The notes: generated by a model not told the origin, from the sequence alone. Counted from the stretch's first letter, positions 1-21,175 are shown. The stretch: DNA of 32,000 nt from Candidatus Electronema halotolerans (GCA_942493095.1 OW818675.1:3150001-3182000); one strand, 5' to 3'. Numbers and translations: made by a program.

Positions 1-11
1 AATTTTCTGAG

Positions 12-278
12 TCAAGCAATCTCAAAATTTCCATGCTTGACCTCTTCGATTTTTCCGCAAAGCTCGTTGAATATTTTCATCTGCGCTTTCCATTCAATGT
101 AATCATCCCACTGTGAAAAATCATCTTGCGCGGCATGTTCAACCTGCTGTTTGAACTCGCTCCACGGCTGGTTGTATTTTTGCTCAAAAAGACGTATTTT
201 TTCGCGCACCGTGTGCAGGGCAGCATGATATTCCATCAGGAGCCATTCTGCAATTTCCTGCTTATACACTGTAATCAT
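12..278 (-). CDS. hypothetical small protein (88 aa), family not recognised
   Basis: Intact ORF in an AT-rich segment. The sequence is W/D/E/K-rich and looks helical (WDDYIEWKAQMK). Its downstream neighbour lies off-window, so any partner gene is unseen. Confidence 0.45.
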   Translation of the reverse strand: MITVYKQEIAEWLLMEYHAALHTVREKIRLFEQKYNQPWSEFKQQVEHAAQDDFSQWDDYIEWKAQMKIFNELCGKIEEVKHGNFEIA

Positions 279-361
279 GTCTCTTCACCTCCAATGAATG
301 CGTGATCGCAACAAGCCATCCCCATGCTGGAAGTAAAAAAAATACAGCTAAAATGGGATGC

Positions 362-1867
362 TGTCAAACCAAAACAGCCCGAACTGCTTCTGCAATCCGG
401 GCTGATCACTCTCCGCATCACAACGAAACCGCCAGCGTTACACCGTCGCAGGCTCCTTCACTTCCTCACCAAAGGCGTGAATCTGAGCCATGATGCCGTT
501 CATAGTGAAGCGGCCCATGTCAATGGCCATAGTCGGACAGCGGGCCGCGCACACGCCGCAGCCCTTGCAGGAGGCGGTGATGGTGCGGGCCTTGCGCTTG
601 CCGTTGTCATCCTTATAGATATCAATGGCCTTGTACGGACAGAAGCTCTCGCAGGCTCCGCAGCCGATGCACTGCTCCGCGTCGATCTGAGAGACAATCG
701 GGGCCGGAGTCACCGAGCCTTTGGCTAACGGATGACTGGCCCGGCCTGCTGCCGCCTGGGCCTGAGCCACAGTCTCGTCCATCGAGCGCGGCGAATGGGC
801 CAGACCGCAGACAAAAGTCCCGTCCACCGGCAGGTCAACCGGCTGGAGCTTGACATGCGCTTCCAAGAAGAATTTTTCCGCCGTGACCGGCACTTTCAGC
901 ATCTTGGCCAGCGCGGTCGGGTCTTCCGGGACTATGCCGGTTGACAGAGCGAGCAGATCGGTATCCGCTTCCAACTCCTCGCCGAGCAGCGGGTCAAAGT
1001 AGCGCACCTTAACCGCATCGCCATCGACACTGACTTCCGGCTTGCGCTCCAAGCTGTAGCGGGTGAAAATCACGCCGAGTTGGCGCGCTTTGCGGTAATC
1101 ATCTTCCATAAAGCCGTAGGAACGCATGTCTCGGTAAAGAATCACAATCTGCATTTCCGGCTGAAGAGCCTTGAGGCGCAGGGCGTTCTTCAGAGCTTGG
1201 CCGCAGCAGACCCGGCTGCAATAGGTCAAATCCTCGTCCCGCGAGCCGACGCACTGAATCATCACCGCCCGTTTGGCCGCCTTGAGGCCGTCCTGCTCCG
1301 CAACCAGCCGCTGCTCCAGCTCAAGCTGGGTGACGATCTTCGGTGACTGGCCGTAGCAATATTGCGTCGGCTGATAAGGATTGCCGCCTGTCGCTAAAAC
1401 CGTCACTCCGTGGTGAATCAGCTCGCTCGCGCCCTTGCTTTCTACCGTGGTGGTGAAGTTGCCGACATAGCCGGAACAGGCCGTCACCTGCGCCTCGGTA
1501 TGCACAGTGATGCGCGCATGACTGTTGACCCGATCAATCACCGACTGCACGGCCTGCTTGGGATCATTGCCGCGCCGGTCAGCCGTGAGCAGCAGGGCCT
1601 TGCCGCCGAGCTGAGTTCCGCGCTCGATCAAGGCGACATCAAAGCCCTGATCAGCAATGGCCAAGGCTGCTGTCATGCCTGCCAAGCCGCCGCCGACCAC
1701 CAGTGCCGAGGGCGTGACCGGGAGCTGCATCTCTTGCAACGCGGTCAGATGACAGGCTTTGGCCACGGCCATGCGCACAGCATCTTTAGCTTTCGCAGTC
1801 GCCCGCTCCGGCTCGTGTATATGCACCCAAGAACATTGGTCGCGGATATTGGCCATCTCAAAGAGCG
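362..1867. repeat. left copy of a ~1.5-kb direct repeat (3' half of the hdrA-like gene plus its terminator)
   Basis: Hand alignment with 6057-7563 is collinear at an offset of 5695/5696 nt. Homology starts near TGTCAA downstream of the stop codon. It ends abruptly after CTCAAAGAGCG at 1867. Confidence 0.9.
365..403 (-). terminator. rho-independent terminator, duplicated copy
   Basis: The minus strand reads AGCCCGGATTGC-AGAA-GCAGTTCGGGCT, a 12-bp stem with 2 G-U pairs and a 4-nt loop, followed by GTTTTGGTTT. It is the same hairpin as at 6070-6097. Confidence 0.6.
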
Positions 1868-1925
1868 GAATCCGTTGTTCTTGATAGATAGAGAATATCG
1901 ATCTATAATAAACAGGTAAGCACAT
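438..1925 (-). pseudogene. 5'-truncated duplicate of the hdrA-like gene; the last ~474 codons are intact, with a 21-codon unrelated N-terminal extension
   Basis: From LFEMANIRDQCSWVH onward the ORF aligns with the C-terminal half of the 6134-9202 product, with 17 substitutions by my count. The first 21 codons (MCLPVYYRSIFSIYQEQRIP) come from AT-rich non-homologous DNA. I see no convincing SD before the ATG at 1925. Confidence 0.8.
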
Positions 1926-1960
1926 CAGCCATATCCAAAATATTTGCCAAGGAAAGCATC

Positions 1961-2164
1961 ATGGAACAAATAGATAAAATATCTGACAACGAATTGGTCC
2001 GCCGCTGCATGGAGCGAACAGGAATCAAAACACAAGCGGCCTTAATTGATTACGCATTGCGCGAGCTGCTCAGGCGTGAGAATCAAATGGAAATTCTGCA
2101 ATTGAAGGGGCGTGTTCATTGGCAGGGTAGCTTGGAGGAATGGCGGCAGGGACGTGACGCATGA
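1961..2164 (+). CDS. vapB: type II antitoxin, VapB family
   Basis: 67-aa product containing ALIDYALRELLRRENQMEIL...G...W.G.LEEWR, typical of VapB-type antitoxins. An AAGGAAAG SD lies upstream. The stop overlaps the vapC start (ATGA). Confidence 0.8.
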   Translation: MEQIDKISDNELVRRCMERTGIKTQAALIDYALRELLRRENQMEILQLKGRVHWQGSLEEWRQGRDA

Positions 2165-2574
2165 TGGTTTTGGTTGACACCAGCGTCTGGATAAATTTCT
2201 TTGCAGCCCGCGCCTGCCCGCATGTTGCGGCCCTTGAGCAGCTTATTGTCAACCGGGAAGATGTTTGTCTTTGCGGTGTTATTCTGACAGAGATTCTTCA
2301 GGGAATCAGAAATGACGCGGAGTTTGAGCGCACACGGGAAATGCTGGAAAATTTAATTTTTCTGCCGATGCGTCAGTCTGTTTTTCTGCGGGCAGCCGAG
2401 ATATATCGTTCTCTGCGGAAGAAAGGCATCACTGTCAGAAAGCCGGTGGACTGCATGATTGCATCCACAGCCATCGAATACAATCTGCCTCTGCTTCACA
2501 ATGACAGAGATTTCATTCCGATTGAGCAGCATTGTGGGTTGAAAAATTTTTTGTCGTCTGAGAGCTTTCAGTGA
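2161..2574 (+). CDS. vapC: PIN-domain ribonuclease toxin VapC
   Basis: 137 aa. The N-terminal VLVDTSVWINFF carries the first PIN acidic residue. TEILQG, VDCMIAST and LHNDRDF supply the remaining acidic positions. There is a 4-nt overlap with vapB. Confidence 0.9.
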   Translation: MMVLVDTSVWINFFAARACPHVAALEQLIVNREDVCLCGVILTEILQGIRNDAEFERTREMLENLIFLPMRQSVFLRAAEIYRSLRKKGITVRKPVDCMIASTAIEYNLPLLHNDRDFIPIEQHCGLKNFLSSESFQ

Positions 2575-2700
2575 GATTTGGCAGTTTGCTTGCGAGGAAA
2601 AAATATGAAGCCGATTCTGCAATGGGAGAACACTTCTCCACATGTCCTGCATCAGGTGCTGGAAGAAACGTTACCGGCTTCGGCTTGAACGAGCTAACAC

Positions 2701-5700
2701 TCAATCCTTGATGCAGCGAACAGATGCTCCCCCCGCACGAAGAATTATATCATTTAAGTATGCTTCACTGGTGGTGAAATTCAAGGCGTAAGAATAGGAG
2801 ATATTATAACCAAGACAATCATAACCGATGCTGGTCCAGTAAAAACCATAGACACCTTGACCGGTTATTTCTCCATCTGTGTGTGAACGACTGCCTGATG
2901 CAACGATCTTTAAAGGAGACGCGAACGCGCCAGCAGCATCTTTTGAACTCCAAGAATTTATCTCAACTTGCCATTCATCTTTAGTCGGCAGTCTGAATCC
3001 GTCAGGACAAGGATTATTTACGCCGTTTACGCCTTGCCACAGGTTATTATTTTGCGGACTTCTCCAATCATAAGGACTGACATCTGATGTTATAAATTTA
3101 TCATGTCCCGGATGATCGGTAGAAATGAGCGTTGAAGTTGTTCCGCTTGTTCGTTTTTCATGCCCGTCAGAAAGTCTGCCCCACTGATAAAGATCGCCAA
3201 ACGCCTCTGTATCCGTCATACTCGTTGCCACTCGCGAAGCACCGAGATTGCGGTCCATCCAGATTCTTCCTGTCGGAGAAGTTACCGTTGGGATTGTAGG
3301 TTTCTGTATTGTTATGGTGAGCTTTTCTTCTGTCCAAGGAACGCTTTCAGAGGAACCAATAGTTGATGTTACGACAGCAAAATACGTTTTTCCCGCTATA
3401 CCTTGGAAACTCGCATTTGTTGCTGTTGTTTTTATTGTAAAACCATTTGGATGTGAATCGAAATCTTCAGGGTCTATTCCTCTTTTATCGGAAATATAGA
3501 CTGTATATCCATCTGCAAAAGGTGATGCATCCCAGCTTAGATAAACAACCGCTGAATCGTTCGCGGTAAGAGCTAAATTCTTTGGGGGCTGGGGCGTTAC
3601 TATTTCTTTTGAAACGACACTTACAAAAAATTGATCTTTTTCAGATTCTCCGCTTGGGGTGGTGACTTTTACTCTTCCTCGGATAAGTACATGATTTGTT
3701 CCTAGTGGAATTTCTGGTGCAACAAAAGAAGCTGTTGTCCCATTATTTGAAATTGAAATTCCCTCAGGAGAAGTAATTCTCCAGTCGTATTCAGTTCCTG
3801 ATGGTGGTGTGTAGGGTACTGTATTAAAGCTAAGATCACCATCTTCTAATTCCAATAAAACCTGTTCCCCAGGTTCTGCTGTCTGGAATTTTTTAACCAG
3901 ATTTAGCGACAGTTCTTTCTGTAAAATTTCCTGATCAAGAGTCAATCCATATTCATAGGTATTACTCAGCGAACTTGTATGGAGTATTCCGAGTGGATCG
4001 TTTTTATATTTTTTATATCGAACCCATGTGGATATCTCCAAAAAATCGTTAGTTACATCTGGGTTATCCATTTTTTCTGCAAGGCAGCCGTTATACGTGT
4101 CTCCGTAGTTATATAGGTTGAATTTACTCCCGCCAATTCCTTTAGGGATGCCTGAATAAATTGTGTTATTAAAAACGCCGTTCTCTCCCAGAGAACGAAA
4201 TTGTATTTGACCTGTATCTATCATCAGTCCATCGGTCGATAAATTTTCAAATTCTACGCAGACAACGATGAAGTTATTGATGGTCGAAACCTTTTTTATA
4301 CGGATATTCATCATATCTGTAGATGAATTCTGTTGAGAAGGTAAAAGAATAATCGCTTTGTCTTTCAAATCCTTCACCTTACTATCTACTAACCCAGTAG
4401 CATCAGCAACTATTTTATTAAACAACGCCTCGTCAATATTTCTATTGTTCATGAAATGTTTTTTCAGTTCCCACCAATTTGATGGATACCCATATTCAGC
4501 CTGCTGTTTTACAAACGCAAGTTTTCCAGCCGCATTATAATACGCATTAAGATAATCCAAAGCGGCACTATATGTGTCGATCTCGTCTTGCTTGCTATAG
4601 AGCATCCATGCTGCTATTCCATTTAAGTAAACTTGGTAAACCTCTTGCGAGAATTGACTGACACAGCCCAAAGCACTTAATTTAGAAATATCGCGTTCCC
4701 AACGGCAAGCATCATACACCCTGCCTCCTTTCATGAGTCCATCAACAGCACCGGCAGTCCACAGGTGGCCTTCTCCTATGAGTTCTTCTTTAATTTCATC
4801 CTCGGTCATCGAAAGCAATTCGCTCTTTACTTTATCTTTACCACCTTCTAACAATCCTGCTTTTACACTGTCAGGACTTGCATTAACTGCTGAAATAGCA
4901 GCAAAAGCATCTGCTACAGCCTTTGCATCTTTCTCTGCTTCCTTTTTTCTTTCTAAAACATCGAGAGAGTCCCATATCATGGCACTATGTTGAAGATTCA
5001 TTAACGGTCCTACGTGAAAATGCCAGAAATAATGTTTTAATCTATACCAAGCACTCATGGGTGCATCACCTTCAAGTATAGCTGTATTGCATGGAAAATC
5101 TGTCAAACAGCCAGCCAAGGGAGAATTGCCATGATAATAGTCATAAATACCAAGATTTTTTAGCAGTTCAGCCTTGGGGGCATTGATAGAATGCTGGATA
5201 CTGCCTGTCTTATCCGCATTAAACTCCTTGCCGACTAACGTTTTAAATTGGTTTTTAAAATCTTGGTCGTTTGGATCAACTTCATAGATGGAATAGCTGA
5301 GGTTTTTAAGAGCTTCATCATCATCTGTTTTGATCTGTATTCCGTTATCAGGCAGGCCGTCAGAATCTAAGCTTTGCATGATCATGGCTACTTGTTCATA
5401 GCTGCTCATATCATTAACAAAAGCGTATTTATCTGCTCGTACTACCCCTATTGGTTGTCCGCCAATAAAAAATTTTATTGTATCTCCTTTCTTGTAGCGA
5501 TATTCGCAGTTTTCTGTTGTTCTTCCGCTGATACCAGAGCTGGTCTCATATTGCATATTCGATACACAACTATCGATAAATTTACCTGTCTTGACTTTTG
5601 ATCTTATGATAGGAACTATTTTTAATAGTAAGCTTGATGCAGCAAATCCAACCCTGAATGAACAGGTTATAAGCAACAATAAGATAAGTACCCAGAATTT

Positions 5701-5718
5701 TTTATTCATGTTCTTCAT
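2701..5718 (-). CDS. large secreted/surface mosaic protein with Ig/PKD-like and FN3-like modules and a C-terminal FISUMP domain (Fibrobacter succinogenes major paralogous domain, TIGR02145-type)
   Basis: N-terminal signal peptide MKNMNKKFWVLILLLLITCSFRVGFA. FN3-like segment PPKNLALTANDSAVVYLSWDASPFADGYTVYIS. C-terminal motifs are GRIWMDRNLGA...FGDLYQWGR...NPCPDGFRLPTKDEW...GFYWTS. GC content is much lower than the flanks, and no SD is visible before the ATG. Confidence 0.85.
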   Translation of the reverse strand: MKNMNKKFWVLILLLLITCSFRVGFAASSLLLKIVPIIRSKVKTGKFIDSCVSNMQYETSSGISGRTTENCEYRYKKGDTIKFFIGGQPIGVVRADKYAFVNDMSSYEQVAMIMQSLDSDGLPDNGIQIKTDDDEALKNLSYSIYEVDPNDQDFKNQFKTLVGKEFNADKTGSIQHSINAPKAELLKNLGIYDYYHGNSPLAGCLTDFPCNTAILEGDAPMSAWYRLKHYFWHFHVGPLMNLQHSAMIWDSLDVLERKKEAEKDAKAVADAFAAISAVNASPDSVKAGLLEGGKDKVKSELLSMTEDEIKEELIGEGHLWTAGAVDGLMKGGRVYDACRWERDISKLSALGCVSQFSQEVYQVYLNGIAAWMLYSKQDEIDTYSAALDYLNAYYNAAGKLAFVKQQAEYGYPSNWWELKKHFMNNRNIDEALFNKIVADATGLVDSKVKDLKDKAIILLPSQQNSSTDMMNIRIKKVSTINNFIVVCVEFENLSTDGLMIDTGQIQFRSLGENGVFNNTIYSGIPKGIGGSKFNLYNYGDTYNGCLAEKMDNPDVTNDFLEISTWVRYKKYKNDPLGILHTSSLSNTYEYGLTLDQEILQKELSLNLVKKFQTAEPGEQVLLELEDGDLSFNTVPYTPPSGTEYDWRITSPEGISISNNGTTASFVAPEIPLGTNHVLIRGRVKVTTPSGESEKDQFFVSVVSKEIVTPQPPKNLALTANDSAVVYLSWDASPFADGYTVYISDKRGIDPEDFDSHPNGFTIKTTATNASFQGIAGKTYFAVVTSTIGSSESVPWTEEKLTITIQKPTIPTVTSPTGRIWMDRNLGASRVATSMTDTEAFGDLYQWGRLSDGHEKRTSGTTSTLISTDHPGHDKFITSDVSPYDWRSPQNNNLWQGVNGVNNPCPDGFRLPTKDEWQVEINSWSSKDAAGAFASPLKIVASGSRSHTDGEITGQGVYGFYWTSIGYDCLGYNISYSYALNFTTSEAYLNDIILRAGGASVRCIKD

Positions 5719-6056
5719 TTTTTTGAAAAATGCTATATGTTAAAGCAAAGATGGAACGTTTTAATGGGCTATGCCCTGTGCGAGACCATGTCTCGGACCT
5801 TCTGCCGGGTTTTGTCTGTGAAGCAGGCGAGGGATTCAGCCAGATAAAGTAACCGTAAGCACCCCGTCGTCGGTGGCTCACGGACAGGTTGATGCCGTGG
5901 ATTTGAAAGAGCCTGCCCGTGTCGCAGAACAGGAAAAAATCTATAAACCAATCCTGTCTATAGATGAATTATAGTAATTTCATACTCTTTGCAGCATGTT
6001 CATTAGTCTCATGAGATGCAAGTAATTTGATCAGTATCTCCGCTGCCACTTATTTT

Positions 6057-7563
6057 GTCAAGAAAAAAGAGCCCGAACTGCTTCTGCAATCCGGGCTGAT
6101 CTATATTACTGCATCACAACAAAACCGCCAGCTTTACGCTGCCACAGGCTCCTTGACCTTCTCACCAAAGGCGTGAATCTGGGCCATGATGCCGTTCATG
6201 GTGAAGCGGCCCATGTCGATAGCCATAGTCGGACAGCGGGCCGCGCACACGCCGCAGCCCTTGCAGGAGGCGGTGATGGTGCGGGCCTTGCGCTTGCCGT
6301 TGTCATCCTTATAAATATCAATGGCCTTGTACGGGCAAAAGCTCTCGCAGGCTCCGCAGCCGATGCACTGCTCCGCGTCGATCTGAGAGACAATCGGAGC
6401 CGGAGTCACCGAGCCTTTGGCTAACGGATGACTGGCCCGGCCTGCTGCCGCCTGGGCCTGAGCCACAGTCTCATCCATCGAGCGCGGCGAATGGGCCAGA
6501 CCGCAGACAAAGGTCCCGTCCACCGGCAGATCCACCGGCTGGAGCTTGACATGCGCCTCCAAGAAGAACTTCTCCGCTGTGACCGGCACCTTGAGCATTT
6601 TGGCCAGCGTGGTCGGGTCTTCCGGGACGATGCCGGTTGAGAGCGCGAGCAGGTCGGCATCCGCCTCCAGTTCCTCACCGAGCAGCGGATCAAAATAGCG
6701 CACTTTGACCGCATCGCCTTCAACGCTGACCTCCGGCTTGCGCTCCAAGCTGTAGCGGGTGAAGATCACGCCGAGCTGGCGCGCCTTGCGGTAGTCGTCC
6801 TCCATGAAGCCGTAGGAGCGCATGTCGCGGTAGAGGACAACAATCTGCATCTCCGGCTGCAATGCCTTGAGGCGGAGGGCGTTCTTCAGAGCTTGGCCGC
6901 AGCAGACGCGGCTGCAATAGGTCAAATCCTCGTCCCGCGAGCCGACGCACTGAATCATCACCGCCCGCTTGGCCGCCTTGAGGCCGTCCTGATCAGCAAC
7001 CAGCCGCTGTTCCAATTCAAGCTGGGTGACGATCTTGGGCGACTGGCCGTAGCAATATTGCGTGGGCTGATAAGGATTGCCGCCAGTGGCAAGCACAGTC
7101 ACACCGTGATGAATCAGCTCGCTCGCGCCCTTGCTTTCCACTGTGGTGGTGAAATTGCCGACATAGCCGGAGCAGGCCGTCACCTGCGCCTCGGTATGCA
7201 CAGTGATGCGCGCATGACTGTTCACCCGATCAATCACCGCCTGCACGGCCTGCCGGGGATCATTGCCGCGCCGGTCAGCGGTGAGCAGCAGAGCCTTGCC
7301 GCCGAGGCTCTGCCCCCGCTCAACCAAGGCCACATCAAAACCCTGATCAGCAATGGCCAGCGCAGCAGTCATGCCTGCCAGACCGCCTCCGATCACCAGA
7401 GCTGAGGGCGTGACTGGGAGCTGCATCTCCTCCAGCGCGGTCAGATGACAGGCTTTGGCAACCGCCATGCGCACCGCATCCTTGGCTTTTTCCGTAGCCC
7501 GTTCCGGCTCATGGATATGCACCCAAGAACATTGGTCGCGGATATTGGCCATCTCAAAGAGCG
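6057..7563. repeat. right copy of the ~1.5-kb direct repeat (inside the intact hdrA-like gene and its terminator)
   Basis: Collinear with 362-1867. Beyond 7563 the sequence continues as the genuine 5' half of the gene. Confidence 0.9.
6060..6097 (-). terminator. rho-independent terminator of the hdrA-like gene
   Basis: The minus strand forms a 12-bp stem AGCCCGGATTGC/GCAGTTCGGGCT with an AGAA loop, followed by CTTTTTTCTT. It lies 37 nt after the stop codon. Confidence 0.8.
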
Positions 7564-9202
7564 AACGGTTCAGTCCGGCCTCGCGCAAGGTGGCCTGAAA
7601 GAGCGGCTCATGAGTACGCGGCGTGCAGGCCGCCACCACCAGCCGATTGAGCTTGTGTTCCTGAATAGTCTCGGTCAGCACCCGCTGCGCGTCCTGCGAG
7701 CAGGAATACATATTGGCCGAGGCGTAGGCAACATGAGGCAGAGTCTTGGCATATTCAGCCACTTCCGGCACATTAACCACGCCGCCGATGTTGATGCCGC
7801 AGTGGCAGACAAACACGCCCACTCGCGGCTCTTCCTGACTGATGTCGCGCTCGTCCGGGAAGACTGCCTTGACCGTTTCGCTGCCACGAGCTGCGGCAAG
7901 CTGGCCTGCGCAAAGAGCCGCCGCCCCGCCGCCTTGGGTGACAGAATCAGGAATATCTTTCGGCCCTTGGAACGCACCGATCACATAGACACCCGGCCTG
8001 CTGGTCGCCAGCGGGGTGTACGTGTTTGTTTCAGCAAAAAGGTACTCGTTCAGGTCAATGCCAGCGGCCTGAGCCAGCTTGTCCGCTTCATCCGGTGCCT
8101 CCAGTCCCTGCGAGAGCACGACCAGATCAAACTTTTCGCAATGATGCTTGCTGTCCTCAGTTGCCCACGTCAGCATCAGGCCGCCGCCGAAGACATCCTC
8201 GACCTTGGGCGGACGGGCATAGATCACTCGGAACTTGCCTTCTTCAATCGCCCGCTTGCGGGCCGCATCAAAGCCCTTGCCGTGGGTGCGCACGTCCATG
8301 TAAAAGAGGGTGATCTCGCAGTTCGGATCGTGCTCGCGGGCCAAGGTGGCCTGTTTGATCGCGTACATGCAGCAGACCGAGGAGCAGTAGTTGTTGCCGC
8401 AGGTCTCGTCGCGGGAGCCGATGCACTGGAGGAAGGCGATCTTCTTAGGATGCTTGTGATCGGAAATGCGGAGAATCTCACCGCCAGTCGGGCCAGAGGC
8501 GCACATCAGCCGCTCATGCTCAAAGGCCGTGACCACGTCTTGGAATTTGCCCAGACCGTACTTGGCCATGACCTCGTCGCTGATCCGGCCAAAGCCCGGA
8601 GCAAGAATCACTGCGCCGACTGGAATCTCCAGCGTTTTCTCTGTGTCATCAAAGCGGATCGCATTGGCTTGGCAGGCCACGGCGCAAAGGCCGCAGGTGT
8701 CAAAGTTCAGCTTCAGGCAGGCTTTGGCATCAATATAATACGAGGTCGGCACGGCCTGCGAATAGTCAATATGCGCGGCATGGTTGACCTCCATGTTCTC
8801 GTTGAAATCGTTGCCAATCTGCTTGAGACAGTAGAGCGTGCATTGGCCGCAGCCTGTGCAGACTTCTTCGTCAATATAGCGCGGCTGCTTTTTGATCGTG
8901 GCCGTGAAATTGCCCGGCTCGCCTTTCAGCTCAACCAGCTCGGACAGGGTGAGAATCTCAATGTTGGGATCACGGCCCGCCTCGACCAGCTTGGGCGCGA
9001 GGATGCAGAGCGAGCAGTCATTGGTGGGAAAGGTCTTGTCCAAGCGGGCCATGACCCCGCCGATAGCCCCGGACTTCTCAATCAGATACACCTTGTAGCC
9101 TAATTCTGTCAGGTCAAGGGCGGTCTGGACACCGGCCACGCCGCCGCCGATCACCATCACTGCGCCGCTGATCTTGCCGGGCTGTTCTGCAATTGCGTTC
9201 AT
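6134..9202 (-). CDS. hdrA: two-module HdrA-like FAD/FeS oxidoreductase (heterodisulfide reductase subunit A family), 1022 aa
   Basis: Two dinucleotide-binding motifs: GGGVAGVQTALDL and GGGLAGMTAAL. HdrA core VFVCHCGINIGG...LFEMANIRDQCSWVH. Four ferredoxin-type clusters: CTGCGQC, CGLCAVAC, CIGCGACESFCP, CKGCGVCAARCP. I trimmed the start to MNAIAEQ at 9202 because AAGGAGA lies 8 nt upstream; the ORF-track extension to 9397 looks non-coding. Confidence 0.9.
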   Translation of the reverse strand: MNAIAEQPGKISGAVMVIGGGVAGVQTALDLTELGYKVYLIEKSGAIGGVMARLDKTFPTNDCSLCILAPKLVEAGRDPNIEILTLSELVELKGEPGNFTATIKKQPRYIDEEVCTGCGQCTLYCLKQIGNDFNENMEVNHAAHIDYSQAVPTSYYIDAKACLKLNFDTCGLCAVACQANAIRFDDTEKTLEIPVGAVILAPGFGRISDEVMAKYGLGKFQDVVTAFEHERLMCASGPTGGEILRISDHKHPKKIAFLQCIGSRDETCGNNYCSSVCCMYAIKQATLAREHDPNCEITLFYMDVRTHGKGFDAARKRAIEEGKFRVIYARPPKVEDVFGGGLMLTWATEDSKHHCEKFDLVVLSQGLEAPDEADKLAQAAGIDLNEYLFAETNTYTPLATSRPGVYVIGAFQGPKDIPDSVTQGGGAAALCAGQLAAARGSETVKAVFPDERDISQEEPRVGVFVCHCGINIGGVVNVPEVAEYAKTLPHVAYASANMYSCSQDAQRVLTETIQEHKLNRLVVAACTPRTHEPLFQATLREAGLNRSLFEMANIRDQCSWVHIHEPERATEKAKDAVRMAVAKACHLTALEEMQLPVTPSALVIGGGLAGMTAALAIADQGFDVALVERGQSLGGKALLLTADRRGNDPRQAVQAVIDRVNSHARITVHTEAQVTACSGYVGNFTTTVESKGASELIHHGVTVLATGGNPYQPTQYCYGQSPKIVTQLELEQRLVADQDGLKAAKRAVMIQCVGSRDEDLTYCSRVCCGQALKNALRLKALQPEMQIVVLYRDMRSYGFMEDDYRKARQLGVIFTRYSLERKPEVSVEGDAVKVRYFDPLLGEELEADADLLALSTGIVPEDPTTLAKMLKVPVTAEKFFLEAHVKLQPVDLPVDGTFVCGLAHSPRSMDETVAQAQAAAGRASHPLAKGSVTPAPIVSQIDAEQCIGCGACESFCPYKAIDIYKDDNGKRKARTITASCKGCGVCAARCPTMAIDMGRFTMNGIMAQIHAFGEKVKEPVAA

Positions 9203-9521
9203 GTAGTCAATCTCCTTGGTGCGTCCGCCGCAGCGGCAAGGCCGCGCTGCCAGCGGAAGAATGAAATTGGTGCTGACGGCTCTCTGTGATGCGTCGGCCT
9301 GAGCAGCCGGAGAAATCAGGAGAAGAGAAAAGCCGCCGACAGTTTGTCCCAGCCTGAATCGGGCCGGATGCCGTGACGGCAATTTCAGATGATACAACGA
9401 ATCTTCAGCATCTCTGCCATGTTCCTGATGGGCAACGGATTGAAAAACTGCGCAAAAGGATAGCCCAATATGGACGGAATTGCAAGCGGAAAAGGCGGCG
9501 CAGGCCGCTGGAACAGCTGAC

Positions 9522-10076: not shown

Positions 10077-10526
10077 GACAAAAGCTGGGCAGGTTCAAGG
10101 GCAAAGTGATGTTCAAGGGGCAATATGCCGTGTTCCTGCGTGTTCGTCAAGCCATTGCCCTGACTTCGCAAGGGATGGAGTCAGCAGCATCTTGTCTTTT
10201 CTCCAGCCTTGGGCTATAGTCCGCTGTTCCCGCAGCGCATCTTGTTCACAGGAGGGCCGCCATGCCCGGTCCATTCACACCGTAGGAGCAGAAGCATGAA
10301 CCTTGCTTGGTTTAAAGATATTGCCCCGCATCTGAGCAGTCCACTGGTGCTGGTGGGCTTTACCTATATCAGAAACGCGGTGACTTGGACCAAGCGGAAA
10401 TTTGGTGGAAGCAAAGTCTGAGTCTGTTTCTGCCAATGTGCCATCCTTGTGCCAAGAAGATGCAACAATTGCTAAATGAATTAGCCCGGCACCGCGCCAG
10501 CCAGCAGGCACCCACTGCGGCCAATT

Positions 10527-10634
10527 CCCGATAGCAGTATCGGAACAAACTCGACAGTGCTTTCGGGCTGGCCCGATAGTGGTGTCGAGCTGGCCCGAAA
10601 GCAGTGTCGGGGAGAACCCGATACCGGTGTCGGG
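10527..10634. repeat. array of five 22-23-bp-spaced mini-palindromes (CCGAYA-N4-TRTCGG type)
   Basis: Units start at 10527, 10550, 10572, 10594 and 10617. Examples are CCCGATAGCAGTATCGG, CCCGATAGTGGTGTCGA, CCCGAAAGCAGTGTCGG and CCCGATACCGGTGTCGG. Positions 10527-10590 align 54/64 with 11301-11364. Confidence 0.85.
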
Positions 10635-10710: not shown

Positions 10711-11019
10711 ATGAAGTATGAGATAGAGACAAGCAATGTCTTTGACAAATGGCTGGCTGGCATCAAAGACCTCACCTTCAGAGCACGCATCATCAGCCGC
10801 TTTGACCGGATTCAGCTTGGCAGCTTTGGCGATCACAAAAGTCTGGGCGAGGGGCTGTTTGAGCTGCGTTTCTTCTTCGGCCCCGGCTTCCGCGCCTATT
10901 ACACCATCAAGGAATGCAAGGTTGTCTTCCTGCTTTGCGGGGGTGACAAGTCCAGCCAAAGCAAAGACATTGAACGAGCCAAGTCCATCATGGCCAGCTT
11001 GGAGCAGGAGTATGAATAA
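10711..11019 (+). CDS. higB: addiction-module killer protein (RelE/HigB superfamily, TIGR02683-like), 102 aa
   Basis: Motifs FDKWLAGIKD...RARIISRFDRIQLGSFGDHKSLGEGLFELRFFFGPGFRAYY...VFLLCGGDKSSQSKDIERAK. Gene order is toxin first. The start is trimmed to MKYEIET. There is an 8-nt overlap with the antidote gene. Confidence 0.85.
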   Translation: MKYEIETSNVFDKWLAGIKDLTFRARIISRFDRIQLGSFGDHKSLGEGLFELRFFFGPGFRAYYTIKECKVVFLLCGGDKSSQSKDIERAKSIMASLEQEYE

Positions 11020-11293
11020 GATCAGTACGAGAAAATGGGACGCGGTTGAATACCTTGACAGCCCGGAGATGATCCGTGAGTATCTCAGGGTTTCCTTTGA
11101 GGAAGGCGACACTGAGCAGCTCCTGATGGCCATCGGCCAAGTGGCCAAGGCGCAGGGCATCAGCGAGATTGCCCGGAAAGCCAATCTCAGCCGCCAGAAT
11201 CTCTACAAAGCCTTGGCGCAGGGCAGCTCGCCCAAGTTCGAGACCATCAGAAAGGTGGTGGAGGCTCTGGGCTGCAAACTGAGCATCGCCTGA
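11012..11293 (+). CDS. higA: addiction-module antidote protein, HigA family (HTH, TIGR02684-like), 93 aa
   Basis: Motifs WDAVEYLDSPEMIREYL...EGD...AIGQVAKAQGISEIARKANLSRQNLYKALAQGSSPKFETIRKVVEALGCKL. The start is trimmed to MNKISTRK at 11012. Confidence 0.85.
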   Translation: MNKISTRKWDAVEYLDSPEMIREYLRVSFEEGDTEQLLMAIGQVAKAQGISEIARKANLSRQNLYKALAQGSSPKFETIRKVVEALGCKLSIA

Positions 11294-11299
11294 GCCAAT

Positions 11300-11388
11300 C
11301 CCCGACAGCAGTATCAGAATAAACTCGACAGTGCTTTCGGGCTGGCTCAATAACGCTGTCGGGGAAGAACCGACTCAGCCCTGCGGGG
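11300..11388. repeat. second array of 3-4 of the same mini-palindrome units, in direct orientation
   Basis: Units start at 11300, 11324 and 11346, with a degenerate one at 11370. The 26-nt core AAACTCGACAGTGCTTTCGGGCTGGC (11321-11346) is identical to 10547-10572. Confidence 0.85.
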
Positions 11389-14023: not shown

Positions 14024-14260
14024 GCCGTTGGTGCGCTTCATGGGAAGCGCGGCAGGCTGTCCTGCGGAAGAAGAACTCTTCCAGCAGGCAGCCGACAGGG
14101 AATCCGGTGCAAAACCGGAACTGTCCCGCAGCGGTAAGCGGAAACGAACACCGTCTCCTTTGCAAAAGGAAAAGCACTGCGCCTTGGCGCGGGAAGCGGC
14201 GGTCAGTAGGCCGCAGGCATAAGCCTGCCTTGTCCGCAAGTCCGAAAACCTGCCAATGGC
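14024..14260 (+). promoter_or_regulatory. cobalamin (B12) riboswitch aptamer
   Basis: Core AGGGAATCCGGTGCAAAACCGGAACTGTCCCGCAGCGGTAA. GCACTG...GGGAAGCGGC segment. B12-box-like AGTCCGAAAACCTGCC, 14/16 to my remembered consensus AGYCMGGAGACCKGCC. P1 can form between GCCGTTGG (14024-31) and CCAATGGC (14253-60). Confidence 0.85.
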
Positions 14261-14300
14261 GCACTTTTCAGCTTTTGCCCTTCGAGGAAAGGAGAAAGTC

Positions 14301-14459
14301 ATGCCGCACTGCGCCCCTTGCGCCGTGCCTGCGGTCTGCATTCCCTGCATCCGCAGCCCGGCCAGCATCCTTGTTTTCAAACCGCTCTGTTTATCGGCAG
14401 GCTCAACAACACCTGAGCGTGTCACATGGCATCCCCTGAAAACAAGGAGAACATCATAA
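14301..14459 (+). CDS. candidate 52-aa Cys-rich micro-protein or leader ORF
   Basis: GGAAAGGAGAAAG SD lies 5-6 nt before the ATG and ~30 nt after the riboswitch P1. Product is MPHCAPCAVPAVCIPC... (CxxC-x5-CxxC). Its TAA overlaps the next ATG (TAATG). No homology support is available to me. Confidence 0.35.
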   Translation: MPHCAPCAVPAVCIPCIRSPASILVFKPLCLSAGSTTPERVTWHPLKTRRTS

Positions 14460-15283
14460 TGCAGTTTAACGAGGAAAATTCCCGCTTGAACAGCGGTAGT
14501 GAGAAAAAATGCCTGCGCTTTGTCGGGCAGGACATGCAGATACTCAACCCCTTATTTTTTCGGGCGATTGAGGAACGCGACAGCCGCGCTGTGGCGGCAA
14601 TGGCGAGACGGCAGGCCGAAGCCGGGGCAGATGCCTTGGACCTGAACCTTGGCCCGGCCAAGAAGAACAGCAGCCTGCTGACTTGGGTGATTGAGACGGT
14701 CCAAACAGCGGTTGACCTGCCCCTCTTTGTCGCTTCGCAGATTCTCTCCATGCCTGATTTGCTGCAACAGCATCAGGACAGCATCACGGTCAATTCCGTG
14801 ACTGCTGATCCAACAACGCTGGCTGCTGCTATGGAAAGAGCTGGAGCGTATGGAGCCGGTCTGGTGGTGCTGCTGACCAAGCCTGGTCAGAGCGTGTTTT
14901 CGGCGGATGACCGCCTGCTGCTCGCGGCGGAAGTGCTGGAGACCGCAGCCTGCACCGGCTTTCCATTAGCCCGGCTCCACCTTGATCCGCTGTTCCGGCC
15001 TGGGCCGCAGGGCCTGCCTGATCTTGAGCCGGTGCTGGCAACCCTTGCCACCCTGCCGCTTTTAAGCCAGGAAAAGGTGCATACGATTGCAGCCTTGTCC
15101 AGCGCATCCGCCTTTTTGCCTGCGGCCAAACGCCCGGCCCTGCATCAGCGGCTGCTGCCCCTGCTTGCTGAGGCCGGCCTGGACACACTCATTCTCAACT
15201 GCAATGACCGCCGCCTGATGGAGATTGGTCGCCATCTGTCTGATCGTCCGGCGCAGCCGCTCTGGCAAGCAGCCACGGCCTGA
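14459..15283 (+). CDS. pterin-binding domain protein (DHPS / methyl-H4folate:corrinoid methyltransferase-like)
   Basis: The AEAGADALDLNLGP...DLPLFV.S...VNSV...GLVVLL...LHLDPL pattern resembles the MeTr/MetH pterin-binding barrel. I chose the start at 14459 because AAGGAGA lies 8 nt upstream; an alternative ATG at 14426 lacks an SD. Confidence 0.75.
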   Translation: MQFNEENSRLNSGSEKKCLRFVGQDMQILNPLFFRAIEERDSRAVAAMARRQAEAGADALDLNLGPAKKNSSLLTWVIETVQTAVDLPLFVASQILSMPDLLQQHQDSITVNSVTADPTTLAAAMERAGAYGAGLVVLLTKPGQSVFSADDRLLLAAEVLETAACTGFPLARLHLDPLFRPGPQGLPDLEPVLATLATLPLLSQEKVHTIAALSSASAFLPAAKRPALHQRLLPLLAEAGLDTLILNCNDRRLMEIGRHLSDRPAQPLWQAATA

Positions 15284-19520: not shown

Positions 19521-21152
19521 TTAGACCAGCGTCCGCAGACCCTCGGTCAGTTCCTGTCTGTTTTCGCCTTCAATAACCAGCGCATTGCCAACCAGCTCGC
19601 TCACGCCTGCCACCTGCACTTGCGGGACCCAGTATTCCATCAGAGTGGTCAGGGTGGCCCGGTCAATGGCGCAGACGCAGGCCAAGGTGTTGATGGCATG
19701 CTGGTCATAGACATGCTTGACCGCATTGGCGCGGGGCAGGCCGGAGCGCATCCGCAGCTCCATGATCTCCTCGGTGTTCAGGGCCGTGCCGGAACCGCAG
19801 CAGAAGGTTTTCTCGCGGATGGTGTTTTCCGGCATCTCGTGCCATTCGTCGAGCACGTTGTCCAAGATGTAGCGCGGCTCCTCCAGCAGGCCCATCGCTC
19901 TGGCCGGGTTGCAGGAGTCATGGAAGGTGGCCTTGACATGCGCATTGCGGCTCTTGTCCAGCTTGATCTTGCCGTGCTTGATCAGGTCGGCAGTGAACTC
20001 GCTGATATGGACCATCTTGGTTGAGGCGGCATTGTCAAAGACGGTGCCGGTCAGCGGCGACTTGGGCACTTCAAGGAAGTCTGCCGGGCCGTTCATGGTG
20101 TCCATATACTGATGAATGACGCGCCACATGTGGCCGCACTCGCCGCCAAGAATCCACTTCACGCCCAGCCGCTTGGCCTCAGCATACATCTTGGCGTTCA
20201 GCTTCTTCATCATCTCGTTGGAGGTGAAGAGGCCAAAGTTGCCGCCCTCAGAGGCGTAGGTTGACCATGTGTAATCCAAGCCGATGGCTTCAAAAAGCAG
20301 GAGATAGCCCATGCAGGTGAAAATGCCCGGCTCGGCAAACACATCTGCGGACGGGGTGATGAACAGCACTTCCGCGCCCTTGCGGTTGAAGCTGGGATTG
20401 ACCTTGACTCCGGTCAGATTCTCGATGTCCTCGCAGAGAAATTCAACATTGCCCTTGAAGGCCTGCGGGGTCAGTCCCATGTGGTTGCCAGTCCGGTTCG
20501 AGTTGGCAACCGGCTCCATAGCCCAGTTGATGCCGCAGCCGACCAAATGGAGCAGCTCGCGCAGCATCATGGTGATCTCGGCAGTGTCAATGCCGTAAGG
20601 GCAGAAAACTGAGCAACGGCGGCACTCTGTGCATTGATAGGCGTACATGAACCACTCTTTCAGCACGCCAACGGTCATCTCGCGCCCGCCCGCCATTTTG
20701 CCGAGCAGCTTGCCTGCCAAGGTGAATTCTTGGCGATAGACCGAGCGCAGCAGCTCGGCCCGCAGCACCGGCATGTTCTTGGGGTCGCCCGTGCCAAGAA
20801 AGAAATGGCATTTGTCCGCGCAGGCGCCGCAGCGGACGCAGCAGTCCATGAAAATCTTCAGAGAACGGAAGCGGTCAAGGCGGTCTGCCAGCCCCTTGAT
20901 GATAATCTCCTTCCAGTTCTCCGGCAGCTTCCAGTCTTCATCTTCTGGATTCCAAGCGCGGGCGTTGGGAAAGCTCACACCCTGCTGGCTGTTGAGATAT
21001 TCCAGTTTTTCCGGCTTGGTTGGATAGGCATAGTTGCCCGGCTTGAACACTGCCGGGATGTCCATCCACTCTTTTTCCGGCATTGAGCCGGTCATCAGCG
21101 TCGGCTCTTCGACCACGCTCTTTGCCAGCTCATCCTTTTTTATGACGGCCAT
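19521..21152 (-). CDS. dsrK: DsrK, HdrD-like catalytic FeS subunit with CCG domain
   Basis: Cluster motifs CVRCGACADKCH and CTECRRCSVFCP. C-terminal CCG-type motifs FHDSCNPARA and FCCGSG. 543 aa. Confidence 0.92.
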   Translation of the reverse strand: MAVIKKDELAKSVVEEPTLMTGSMPEKEWMDIPAVFKPGNYAYPTKPEKLEYLNSQQGVSFPNARAWNPEDEDWKLPENWKEIIIKGLADRLDRFRSLKIFMDCCVRCGACADKCHFFLGTGDPKNMPVLRAELLRSVYRQEFTLAGKLLGKMAGGREMTVGVLKEWFMYAYQCTECRRCSVFCPYGIDTAEITMMLRELLHLVGCGINWAMEPVANSNRTGNHMGLTPQAFKGNVEFLCEDIENLTGVKVNPSFNRKGAEVLFITPSADVFAEPGIFTCMGYLLLFEAIGLDYTWSTYASEGGNFGLFTSNEMMKKLNAKMYAEAKRLGVKWILGGECGHMWRVIHQYMDTMNGPADFLEVPKSPLTGTVFDNAASTKMVHISEFTADLIKHGKIKLDKSRNAHVKATFHDSCNPARAMGLLEEPRYILDNVLDEWHEMPENTIREKTFCCGSGTALNTEEIMELRMRSGLPRANAVKHVYDQHAINTLACVCAIDRATLTTLMEYWVPQVQVAGVSELVGNALVIEGENRQELTEGLRTLV

Positions 21153-21175
21153 TGTGATTATTCCTTATGCACCTG

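What the first reader, a model, noticed from the sequence alone, without database searches (positions are those of the whole stretch)
362..7563. A 1.5-kb direct duplication of the hdrA-like 3' half brackets a low-GC vapBC + FISUMP islet, resembling a Campbell-type integration scar with no recombinase in sight
Seen in the sequence:
- 362-1867 and 6057-7563 align collinearly. They cover the last ~474 codons, the stop codon and the 12-bp-stem terminator of the hdrA-like gene.
- The right copy runs on into the intact gene. The left copy loses homology abruptly after CTCAAAGAGCG and is joined to AT-rich DNA.
- The ~4.2 kb between the copies holds vapBC, a 1005-aa secreted protein and an AT-rich spacer. 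Its GC is clearly lower (lines I counted were ~35-43%) than the flanks.
- I see no integrase, transposase or terminal inverted repeats between or beside the repeats.

Inference:
- A single crossover between the chromosomal gene and a circular element carrying a promoterless 3' fragment of an hdrA homologue would produce exactly this topology: one full gene, one 5'-truncated copy, and foreign DNA in between.
- It resembles the known e14/phage 21 case in E. coli icd, where the element supplies a replacement 3' end. Here, however, the homology is ~1.5 kb.
- Positions 1-300, left of the truncated copy, are AT-rich too. The island may therefore continue off-window or be composite.
Basis: partly seen in the sequence, partly recalled or inferred. 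Interest (0 to 1): 0.7.

Follow-up and report, generated by a model that had tools for sequence, protein, structure and literature searches.

The report
Old partial hdrA duplication around island
In the cable bacterium Candidatus Electronema halotolerans, a complete hdrA/bamE-like redox gene and a silent-looking copy of its last 474 codons bracket a low-GC surface-protein gene and a toxin-antitoxin pair; a sister species has the same layout, so this is an interesting but ordinary piece of genome history, not a fresh insertion by an unknown mobile element.

Summary
Window 362-1867 and 6056-7563 are collinear direct repeats, 90.9% identical over 1509 columns. They cover the last 474 codons, the stop codon, the 3' UTR and the terminator of a 1022-aa HdrA/BamE-like gene. 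The window comes from the circular Nanopore genome of Ca. Electronema halotolerans, so an assembly artefact is unlikely.

The topology (complete gene, low-GC DNA, 5'-truncated copy) is what a single homologous crossover produces, and there is no recombinase or terminal repeat. But the event is not a one-off recent one:
- Ca. Electronema aureum carries the same low-GC FISUMP gene, joined by the same spacer to hdrA-derived sequence.
- There the hdrA remnant reaches about 1 kb further 5', is badly eroded, and lacks vapBC.
- So the homology was once at least 2.5 kb, and vapBC is a separate insertion.

The truncated copy shows no neutral decay: dN/dS is about 0.04, the same on both branches, with no indels in its coding part. 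A 300-nt tract is nearly identical between the copies, which points to gene conversion.

My best reading (about 0.45) is a homology-driven insertion-duplication that is inherited in, or spread within, Electronema. The left copy would be the displaced silent 3' end.

The parts
12..278 (-). 88-aa hypothetical ORF just downstream of the left copy (flank Z). GC3 is 0.48.
   Evidence: ORF list. Exact match to CAK8724128.1 of Ca. Electronema halotolerans. No significant Pfam or NCBIfam family. No similarity to the DNA that follows the right copy.
362..437 (-). 3' UTR, intrinsic terminator (375-404) and TTGACA of the left copy; this is the distal end of the repeat.
   Evidence: The tail TTTTGGTTTGACA resembles the terminator tail of the E. 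aureum remnant (CTTTGGTTTGACA) more than that of the right copy.
438..1925 (-). Left copy: a 495-aa ORF. Its last 474 codons are homologous to the C-terminal HdrA-like module of the full gene; the first 19-21 codons are junction-derived. It is annotated as CAK8724133.1.
   Evidence: - Identity and selection: 96.4% aa identity to the right copy; 128 nt differences (19/6/103 by codon position); dN/dS 0.04-0.05 and dS 0.40-0.46.
- Truncation: the alignment to HdrA structure 5ODC places the breakpoint at about residue 92 of the N-terminal domain. The conserved cysteines of CHCG, YSCS and AACTP are therefore lost.
- Expression: no sigma-70-like promoter was predicted upstream on the minus strand.
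533..833 (-). Near-identical tract shared with 6229-6529; a probable gene-conversion or exchange tract.
   Evidence: Only 6 differences in 300 nt against about 27 expected; permutation p < 2e-4. For codons 343-443, dS is 0.087 between the copies but 0.58-0.73 to orthologues.
1868..1920 (.). Junction spacer 's' between the low-GC block and the truncated copy. It holds a promoter-like site (1881-1909, + strand) facing vapB.
   Evidence: Conserved in Ca. E. aureum (L171 3488-3529 matches window 1920-1874). There it is followed after one base by hdrA sequence equivalent to window 8617. Promoter scan: 11 of 12 matches.
1921..2586 (+). vapBC type II toxin-antitoxin cassette (vapB 1961-2164, vapC 2161-2574, 4-nt overlap); a secondary insertion.
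   Evidence: Pfam PF09957 and PF01850. NCBIfam NF047959 scores 155 bits against a cut-off of 80. The cassette is absent from the E. aureum locus, where 12 nt stand in place of these 666 nt.
2701..5718 (-). Low-GC gene for a 1005-aa protein with a C-terminal FISUMP domain (CAK8724146.1, annotated as a fibronectin type 3 domain protein; I did not test for a signal peptide).
   Evidence: - Domain: weak FISUMP matches, below the curated cut-offs.
- Distribution: only three homologues among 5.8 billion proteins, all cable-bacterium-like; one is from Ca. E. aureum at 75% identity.
- Against E. aureum: dS is 0.26-0.46 in the first 800 codons and 2.0 in the last 200; omega is about 0.33.
5719..6055 (.). 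Spacer x between the terminator of the full gene and the FISUMP gene. 5719-5766 is shared with E. aureum; 5767-6055 is not.
6056..6133 (-). 3' UTR, terminator (6070-6097) and TTGACA of the full gene; this is the distal end of the right repeat.
6134..9202 (-). Intact 1022-aa tandem HdrA-like (BamE-like) FAD / iron-sulfur oxidoreductase gene. The repeat covers 6134-7563.
   Evidence: - Domains: Pfam Pyr_redox_2 twice, plus Fer4.
- NCBIfam HdrA2 scores 945 bits, below its cut-off of 1100.
- Identity: the protein is identical to CAK8724150.1 of Ca. Electronema halotolerans.
- Homologues: about 1020-aa homologues occur across Desulfobulbaceae; one is named bamE-related.

Best explanation
**What it is.** An insertion-duplication at the hdrA/bamE-like gene made by homologous recombination, not by a site-specific recombinase.

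**Proposed origin (inferred).** DNA carrying the low-GC FISUMP block next to a 5'-truncated hdrA fragment recombined with a resident hdrA. This could have been a single crossover of a circle, or the equivalent 'ends-in' integration of a linear piece. The result is:
- a complete gene (right copy, functional);
- the block;
- a displaced, promoterless 3' copy (left copy, most likely silent).

**Why the copies look the way they do.** The two copies descend from two functional alleles, so their 9% divergence looks like divergence between working genes.

**Age.** The architecture is not private to this genome. It is shared with Ca. Electronema aureum, so it was either inherited from an Electronema ancestor or spread within the genus through the same hdrA homology.

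**Later events in this lineage.**
1. A deletion of about 1 kb shortened the truncated copy from the 8617-equivalent to the 7563-equivalent.
2. A vapBC cassette was inserted.
3. A tract of about 300 nt was homogenised between the copies by gene conversion.

**Shown versus inferred.** Shown: the repeat, its selection signature, the shared junction and the conversion tract. Inferred: the recombination mechanism, which copy is native, and that the left copy is silent.
For: **The repeat is real**
- Repeat and boundaries.
- The source is the circular Nanopore/Flye genome BRK-cMAG, with an SNP rate below 0.1% (exact protein matches; PMC10030654).
- Per-run Logan contigs L001 and L002 span island plus junctions, and break where the copies share 30-mers or longer.

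**The left copy has not decayed**
- dN/dS is 0.04-0.05.
- Polarised changes: left branch 53 synonymous / 15 non-synonymous, right branch 39 / 11 (Fisher p = 1).
- Both branches are far from the neutral expectation of 0.73 non-synonymous (p about 1e-18 and 5e-14).
- There are no indels in the 1422 coding nt, against 4 gap openings in the short 3' UTR and terminator part of the repeat.
- Omega by region matches that of true orthologues.

**It is not a simple tandem duplication.** The DNA after the two terminators is unrelated.

**No recombinase-type signals.** There are no terminal repeats, no tRNA gene and no room for a recombinase.

**The related locus in Ca. E. aureum (L171)**
- FISUMP gene, then the same spacer, then hdrA pieces equivalent to window 8617-8535, 8482-8423, 6704-6630, 6295-6155 and the terminator.
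- Intact HdrA (CAK8720947) lies about three genes from the FISUMP gene (CAK8720935).

**The block looks younger than the species split**
- FISUMP dS is 0.26-0.46, against hdrA dS of about 0.8 across genera.
- Genome-wide ANI to all other cable bacteria is below 78% (PMC10030654).
- GC3 is 0.33 against 0.74.

**Conversion tract:**
Against: - The mechanism is inferred from topology alone. No circle, empty site or donor was found. The metagenome scan gave nothing above 88% aa identity, and there were no plasmid, phage or viral matches.
- The same spacer is joined to different hdrA positions in the two species. That needs an extra deletion whose left end lies within about 13 nt of the junction. 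The GGATTC filler is only suggestive.
- The shared synteny is explained more simply by vertical inheritance.
- The upstream position of the intact hdrA in E. aureum rests on accession spacing, not on sequence.
- The FISUMP 'too similar' argument uses a literature ANI and the hdrA clock, not a genome-wide dS baseline.
- The left copy is an intact, annotated ORF, so function cannot be excluded.
Confidence: 0.45

Rival explanations
1. **Functional short paralogue.** The left copy (and its longer ancestor) encodes a working stand-alone HdrA-like flavoprotein kept by selection. The arrangement is an old vertical duplication, with occasional gene conversion between two functional genes. E. aureum has simply lost its copy.
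For: - The 495-aa ORF is intact, with an ATG start, and is annotated as CAK8724133.1.
- The purifying-selection signature on the left branch equals that of the full gene.
- No indels.
- Natural HdrA-like proteins without the N-terminal domain exist: 6TJR, 349 aa, matched residues 134-456 of the query.
- Left and right copies are sisters and closer to each other than orthologues between the species. That fits conversion between paralogues.
Against: - The truncation cuts through the N-terminal cysteine-rich domain rather than at a domain boundary.
- No promoter-like site lies upstream on the minus strand, and no obvious Shine-Dalgarno sequence precedes either the ATG at 1925 or the internal Met.
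- A terminator-like hairpin lies just upstream on the same strand (2005-1986).
- The E. aureum counterpart is wrecked.
- The ancestral copy would have started inside the first FAD module.
Confidence: 0.2
2. **Old vertical pseudogene with concerted evolution.** The truncated copy has been a silent relic since before the Electronema species split. Gene conversion from the functional copy alone keeps it similar.
For: - Shared junction and synteny with E. aureum.
- The 300-nt conversion tract.
- Each species' remnant is slightly closer to its own clade's intact HdrA: 46/48 against 43/47 and 42/47 residues in the 3' piece.
Against: - After each conversion a silent copy should drift neutrally, with about 73% of changes non-synonymous. 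The left branch shows 22% (p about 1e-18) and no indels.
- Outside the tract the copies differ by dS of about 0.4-0.8, so conversion is not frequent.
- This does not explain the low GC3 or the low dS of the FISUMP block.
Confidence: 0.12
3. **First reader's literal version.** A recent, private integration into this genome of a foreign circular element carrying exactly a 1.5-kb promoterless hdrA fragment plus vapBC and the FISUMP gene, analogous to e14 or phage 21 at icd.
For: Topology, low GC and the absence of decay in the left copy.
Against: - The same block and junction occur in Ca. E. aureum, with a longer hdrA remnant and no vapBC.
- FISUMP homologues are confined to cable bacteria.
- There is no integrase and no att core.
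- An e14-type element replaces about 165 bp by site-specific recombination (own knowledge), which is not what is seen here.
Confidence: 0.1
4. **Assembly artefact or strain chimera.**
For: The genome is a metagenome-derived assembly. Short-read (Logan) contigs break at the repeat.
Against: - The copies differ by 9%, while the SNP rate of the MAG is below 0.1%. The genome is circular, assembled with Flye from Nanopore reads and polished with Illumina reads (PMC10030654).
- Both island junctions lie on single Logan contigs.
- An independent species shows the same layout.
Confidence: 0.02

Closest known systems
Campbell-type (single-crossover, 'ends-in') insertion-duplication by homologous recombination, as in integration of non-replicating plasmids or insertion-duplication mutagenesis
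   Same: Direct repeats of the homology flank the inserted DNA. One gene copy is complete and one is 5'-truncated. No recombinase or att site is needed. The repeats remain substrates for pop-out and gene conversion.
   Different: Here it is a natural chromosome feature shared by two species. The homology arms are 9% diverged. The origin of the fragment-bearing DNA and its transfer route are unknown, and no excised form was seen.
e14 / phage 21 integration into E. coli icd (and islands in the 3' ends of tRNA or tmRNA genes)
   Same: The element sits at the 3' end of a gene. The gene stays intact because a second copy of the 3' end is present, and a displaced 3' fragment remains at the far end.
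   Different: Those use a tyrosine integrase and a short att core, with a duplication of about 165 bp or less (own knowledge). Here there is no integrase, 1.5 kb (formerly at least 2.5 kb) of homology, and no identical core.
Partial gene duplicates or pseudogene fragments evolving in concert with the functional gene by gene conversion
   Same: A 5'-truncated, apparently promoterless copy lies close to the expressed gene. A statistically clear tract of near-identity is present.
   Different: Outside the tract the truncated copy shows the substitution pattern of a functional gene rather than neutral drift.
Type II toxin-antitoxin cassettes that stabilise genomic islands (e.g. TA modules in superintegrons and ICEs; own knowledge)
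   Same: vapBC lies inside a segment that recombination between the flanking repeats could delete. E. aureum has a different TA pair (phd/yoeB) in the corresponding segment.
   Different: Stabilisation is speculative here. Cable-bacterium genomes appear rich in TA genes; at least one more addiction-module gene lies in this window.

Membership tests
Integrase-driven integrative element with 3'-end replacement (e14/icd type) | Site-specific recombinase encoded by the element | tested here: not met
   Pfam and NCBIfam scans of every sizeable ORF in 1-6055 found none. vapBC and the FISUMP gene leave only about 450 nt non-coding. DNA left of position 1 is not available.
Integrase-driven integrative element with 3'-end replacement (e14/icd type) | Short identical att core at both ends | tested here: not met
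   The repeats are 1.5 kb long and 91% identical, with no special identical core at their boundaries. No direct or inverted repeats occur at the island ends.
Integrase-driven integrative element with 3'-end replacement (e14/icd type) | Target gene kept intact by an element-borne 3' end | tested here: inconclusive
   The right copy is intact. Which 3' half is native could not be determined, because the left and right copies are sisters in the trees.
Campbell-type homologous insertion-duplication | Direct repeats of a gene segment flanking the insert, one copy complete and one 5'-truncated | tested here: met
Campbell-type homologous insertion-duplication | Flanks beyond the two repeat ends are unrelated (so not a tandem duplication of a larger unit) | tested here: met
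   361->1 against 6055->5719 gives a local alignment z-score of 1.1 against shuffles.
Campbell-type homologous insertion-duplication | Empty site in relatives, or a detectable excised circle or single-copy junction | tested here: not met
   No empty site was found in the genome or metagenome scans. The only close comparator, E. aureum, is occupied. Read-level tests were not possible.
Decaying pseudogene fragment | Relaxed constraint: dN/dS near 1, with frameshifts or stop codons | tested here: not met
   dN/dS is 0.04. The left branch has 15 non-synonymous of 68 changes, against 73% expected under neutrality (p about 1e-18). There are no indels or stop codons.
Decaying pseudogene fragment | Loss of the 5' coding part and of expression signals | tested here: met
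   It lacks 548 codons, including about 90 residues of the N-terminal cysteine-rich domain of the second module. No promoter-like site was found upstream. Expression itself was not tested.
VapBC type II toxin-antitoxin | PIN-domain toxin preceded by a small overlapping antitoxin gene | tested here: met
   PF01850 (1e-20), NF047959 at 155 bits against a cut-off of 80, and PF09957 for the 67-aa upstream ORF, with a 4-nt overlap.
HdrA (heterodisulfide reductase subunit A) proper | Score above the NCBIfam equivalog cut-offs; single-module architecture of about 650 aa | tested here: not met
   HdrA2 model 945 bits against 1100; HdrA 695 against 1400. The protein is a tandem two-module fusion of 1022 aa, named bamE-related in Desulfocapsa. 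It is HdrA-like, not HdrA.

The most novel reading that the evidence does not exclude
The FISUMP block may be a small island without a recombinase that carries a fragment of a conserved redox gene as a 'homology handle'.
- It would enter naive cable-bacterium genomes by RecA-type ends-in recombination at hdrA.
- Each entry would create a fresh displaced 3' copy. This would explain why the truncated copy always looks like a working gene.
- It could pop out again between the repeats, with TA cassettes selecting against loss.

A variant of this reading is that the silent copy serves as a donor cassette that keeps exchanging sequence with the expressed hdrA.
Probability: 0.1. Interest if true: 0.7.

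Novelty: new member of a known kind. Interest (0 to 1): 0.33.

Why it matters
If the homology-driven reading is right, it is a natural example of how accessory genes can be installed next to a conserved gene, and possibly passed between related species, without any dedicated recombinase. The trace left behind is a displaced gene fragment that annotators call a second 'HdrA family protein'.

Practically, CAK8724133.1 should not be counted as a second functional Hdr subunit in metabolic reconstructions of cable bacteria unless it is shown to be expressed.

The 1.5-kb repeats mark a segment that may be unstable, through deletion or gene conversion. Otherwise this is ordinary genome-evolution material.

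Tried and rejected
1. **Recurrent truncated hdrA copies in other taxa.** The search with the left copy returned many 446-548-aa hits. On inspection they were genes cut by contig ends (P0004, P0080) or full genes split by frameshifts (P0003, P0009, P0011). Rejected.
2. **Left copy as the native Electronema-type allele and right copy as an Electrothrix xenologue.** A few N-terminal sites fit this. However, NJ trees and distances make the two copies sisters in the same clade. Not supported.
3. **Simple tandem duplication.** There is no similarity between the DNA after the two terminators, or between spacer x and the region upstream of hdrA.
4. **Transposon-like ends or target-site duplications** at the island or at the vapBC cassette: none.
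5. **Plasmid, phage or viral origin of the island:** no hit.
6. **Empty site or source contig:** nothing closer than 88% aa in JGI metagenomes, and no flank synteny in Electrothrix genomes.
7. **Transposase upstream of FISUMP in E. aureum.** I guessed that the partial ORF there was a transposase; it has no Pfam hit.
8. **A neutral-looking segment of the left copy next to the junction.** Omega there equals that of true orthologues.
9. **Rfam:** the only RNA family match in the window is a cobalamin riboswitch elsewhere.

Full report
**1.

Self-comparison finds one long repeat in the window: 362-1867 against 6056-7563. It is direct, collinear and 90.9% identical over 1509 columns, with four gap openings. 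On the minus strand the right copy is the 3' part of an intact ORF (6134-9397, probable start ATG 9202, 1022 aa). The left copy is an open 495-aa ORF (438-1925). Its last 474 codons match the full gene, and its first 19-21 codons come from the junction DNA. Both copies include the stop codon, a divergent 3' UTR, a 12-13-bp-stem terminator (375-404 and 6070-6097) and a TTGACA, after which homology ends.

Between the copies lie:
- vapB (1961-2164) and vapC (2161-2574);
- a 1005-aa FISUMP-domain protein gene (2701-5718, minus strand);
- two short spacers.

GC is 36-47% between the copies against 58-64% in the repeats. GC3 is 0.33 for the FISUMP gene against 0.74 for hdrA. I found no tRNA gene, no terminal inverted or direct repeats, and no coding room for a recombinase.

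**2. Source, and the artefact question**

Six proteins of the window are exact matches to proteins of Candidatus Electronema halotolerans:
- the full HdrA-like protein (CAK8724150.1);
- the 495-aa copy (CAK8724133.1);
- VapB, VapC, the FISUMP protein and the 88-aa ORF.

All lie on one 3,199,950-nt contig. That genome (BRK-cMAG) is a circular Flye assembly of Nanopore reads polished with Illumina reads. Its SNP rate is below 0.1%, and its ANI to all other cable-bacterium genomes is below 78% (PMC10030654).

Two copies that differ by 9% cannot be collapsed strain variants in such an assembly. Per-run Logan contigs (L001, L002) carry the island with both junctions. They stop where the two copies share at least 30 identical bases, as expected from a real two-copy structure in a k=31 graph. 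I give the artefact reading about 2%.

**3. What the gene is**

The protein is a tandem fusion of two HdrA-like modules. NCBIfam HdrA models match strongly but below their equivalog cut-offs. About 1020-aa homologues occur throughout Desulfobulbaceae and relatives; one is named 'benzoyl-CoA reductase-related protein bamE'.

The second module aligns with HdrA of Methanothermococcus thermolithotrophicus (5ODC) from residue 13. The breakpoint of the left copy falls at about residue 92, inside the N-terminal cysteine-rich domain. The conserved cysteines of CHCG, YSCS and AACTP are therefore lost. No sigma-70-like promoter is predicted upstream of the left copy on its strand. A terminator-like hairpin lies just upstream, and the best promoter-like site at the junction faces vapB.

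**4. How the copies evolved**

Over the 474 shared codons there are 128 differences, 19/6/103 by codon position. dN/dS is 0.04-0.05 and dS is 0.40-0.46.

I polarised the differences with five Electrothrix or related outgroups. The left branch has 53 synonymous and 15 non-synonymous changes; the right branch has 39 and 11 (Fisher p = 1). Neutral drift would give about 73% non-synonymous changes, and both branches reject that (p about 1e-18 and 5e-14). There is no indel in 1422 coding nt, while the short 3' UTR and terminator part of the repeat holds four gap openings. Omega by region equals that between true orthologues, including next to the junction.

So nearly all of the divergence arose while both sequences were parts of working genes.

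One tract is different. L 533-833 = R 6229-6529 has 6 differences in 300 nt (permutation p < 2e-4). Its dS is 0.087, although both copies there are as far from orthologues as elsewhere. This points to gene conversion or another recent exchange between the copies.

**5. The key comparison**

The FISUMP protein has only three homologues among 5.8 billion proteins. One is from Ca. Electronema aureum, at 75% identity. Read in the FISUMP direction, that contig (L171, NQJD01000062) shows:
1. the FISUMP gene;
2. the same 3' flank (matching window 2675-2587);
3. 12 nt where the window has the 666-nt vapBC cassette;
4. the same junction spacer (matching window 1920-1874, ending ...ATCAAGAACAAC);
5. after one base, hdrA sequence equivalent to window 8617-8535, which is the 5' half of the gene;
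6. a phd/yoeB pair;
7. pieces equivalent to 8482-8423, 6704-6630 and 6295-6155, and the terminator.

The differences between these pieces and the right copy are biased to third codon positions (31 of 52, p = 2e-4). The exception is the piece next to the junction.

E. aureum also has an intact 1018-aa HdrA (CAK8720947.1) on the same chromosome as its FISUMP protein (CAK8720935.1). In E. halotolerans adjacent genes differ by 4-5 accession units, so these two are about three genes apart. The genes downstream of FISUMP in L171 are TA and sigma-54 genes, so the intact hdrA must lie upstream, as in the window. This is an inference.

Four conclusions follow:
- The architecture complete hdrA - spacer - FISUMP - truncated hdrA is shared by two species.
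- The truncated copy once began at least 1 kb further 5'. The window's filler GGATTC may be a remnant of GGCGCAGTGATTC, but this is only suggestive.
- vapBC is a later, separate insertion.
- Low GC is a conserved trait of the FISUMP gene: 37-40% in L171.

**6. Age of the block**

Between the two species, dS of the FISUMP gene is 0.26-0.46 over its first 800 codons, and omega is about 0.33. The last 200 codons are at dS 2.0. hdrA, a slow and codon-biased gene, is at dS 0.75-0.8 between the window and Electrothrix. By protein distance it is at least as far from E. aureum. Genome ANI is below 78%.

A fast-evolving surface-protein gene that is this similar looks younger than the species split. That suggests exchange of the block within Electronema. 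This rests on an indirect baseline and is an inference.

**7. Putting it together**

- A silent relic kept similar to the functional gene only by conversion should show neutral changes on its own branch. It does not (section 4).
- A simple tandem duplication is excluded by the unrelated flanks.
- Site-specific integration lacks every defining feature.

Two readings remain.

Reading A is homologous (Campbell or ends-in) integration of FISUMP-bearing DNA with an hdrA fragment. In this reading one 3' half is the displaced native end and the other is the imported functional allele. It explains:
- the topology;
- the symmetric purifying signature;
- the lack of decay;
- the compositional foreignness and low dS of the block;
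- through homology targeting, the same location in two species.

Reading B is that the truncated copy is itself functional and selected, with occasional conversion between paralogues. HdrA-like proteins without the N-terminal domain do exist (6TJR). Against it, the cut is inside a domain, expression signals are missing, and the E. aureum counterpart is wrecked.

I put reading A at about 0.45, reading B at about 0.2, and a purely vertical silent relic at about 0.12.

**8. Leads that went nowhere**

- The many 'short HdrA' database proteins are contig-edge or frameshift products.
- The idea that the left copy is Electronema-type and the right copy Electrothrix-type fails in trees, where the two are sisters.
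- No plasmid, phage or viral relatives exist.
- No empty site was found.

**9. Verdict**

This is a new example of a known kind of event: an insertion-duplication with later conversion and erosion. Two features make it interesting. It is conserved across two cable-bacterium species, and the displaced copy shows no decay. Interest is about 0.33.

The most novel reading still open is a recombinase-less island that spreads by carrying a gene fragment as a homology handle. I give it about 0.1.

Noticed in passing
window 10520-10587 and 11294-11361: Two 68-nt direct repeats, 87% identical. One lies upstream of, and the other overlaps the end of, an addiction-module antidote gene (10736-11293, HI1420-downstream family). 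This looks like another small TA-type cassette just upstream of hdrA.
   Followed up: no
window 14037-14271 (+): Cobalamin riboswitch (RF00174, 76 bits) upstream of an ORF with no Pfam family (14426-15283).
   Followed up: no
L001 (Logan ERR9669565) against window 2701-5718: The short-read contig is 99.95% identical to the window but has two gaps. They split the FISUMP gene into 185-aa and 682-aa ORFs. Either the FISUMP gene varies in the population or one assembly carries an indel error.
   Followed up: partly
L171 3662-4164 (Ca. Electronema aureum): A phd/yoeB toxin-antitoxin pair sits inside the eroded hdrA remnant. E. halotolerans has vapBC at a different point of the same repeat-flanked segment. 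So two different TA cassettes were acquired independently in the corresponding place.
   Followed up: partly
L086 (E. gigas CP147989), L028 (Electrothrix sp. YB6 CP178758), L084 (JBGGHE010000344), L088: In several other genomes the about 1020-aa hdrA-like gene is split into two ORFs near its middle by a frameshift. These may be long-read errors or real pseudogenisation. Annotators then call 'short HdrA' proteins.
   Followed up: partly
L007, L022, L028, L086 (flanks of hdrA in Electrothrix genomes): The genomic context of this hdrA-like gene differs in every cable-bacterium genome examined: flpD/HGD-D/BcrAD, a formate-dehydrogenase-like fusion plus transposase, or feoB. In other Desulfobulbaceae a hdrA-flpD-...-HGD-D-BcrAD cluster is conserved. 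The window has none of these partners nearby.
   Followed up: partly
window about 7524-7563 / 1828-1867 and homologous positions in L083, L085, L087: Three unrelated metagenome contigs begin within about 80 nt of the same very conserved stretch (encoding ..FEMANIRDQCSWVH..) where the left copy's homology starts. This is probably an assembly-graph effect of an ultra-conserved segment, but it coincides with the breakpoint.
   Followed up: partly
window 2701-3300 against L171: The C-terminal 200 codons (the FISUMP domain) of the surface protein are far more diverged between the two Electronema species (dS 2.0, dN 0.53) than the first 800 codons (dS about 0.3). This suggests domain replacement or mosaic recombination within the gene.
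   Followed up: no
window 19521-22201 (-): A DsrMK/HmeCD-like pair (a NarI-type membrane subunit plus a Fer4_8 iron-sulfur protein), followed by an RsbRD_N-domain gene and a tail-specific protease. This is ordinary chromosomal context.
   Followed up: no
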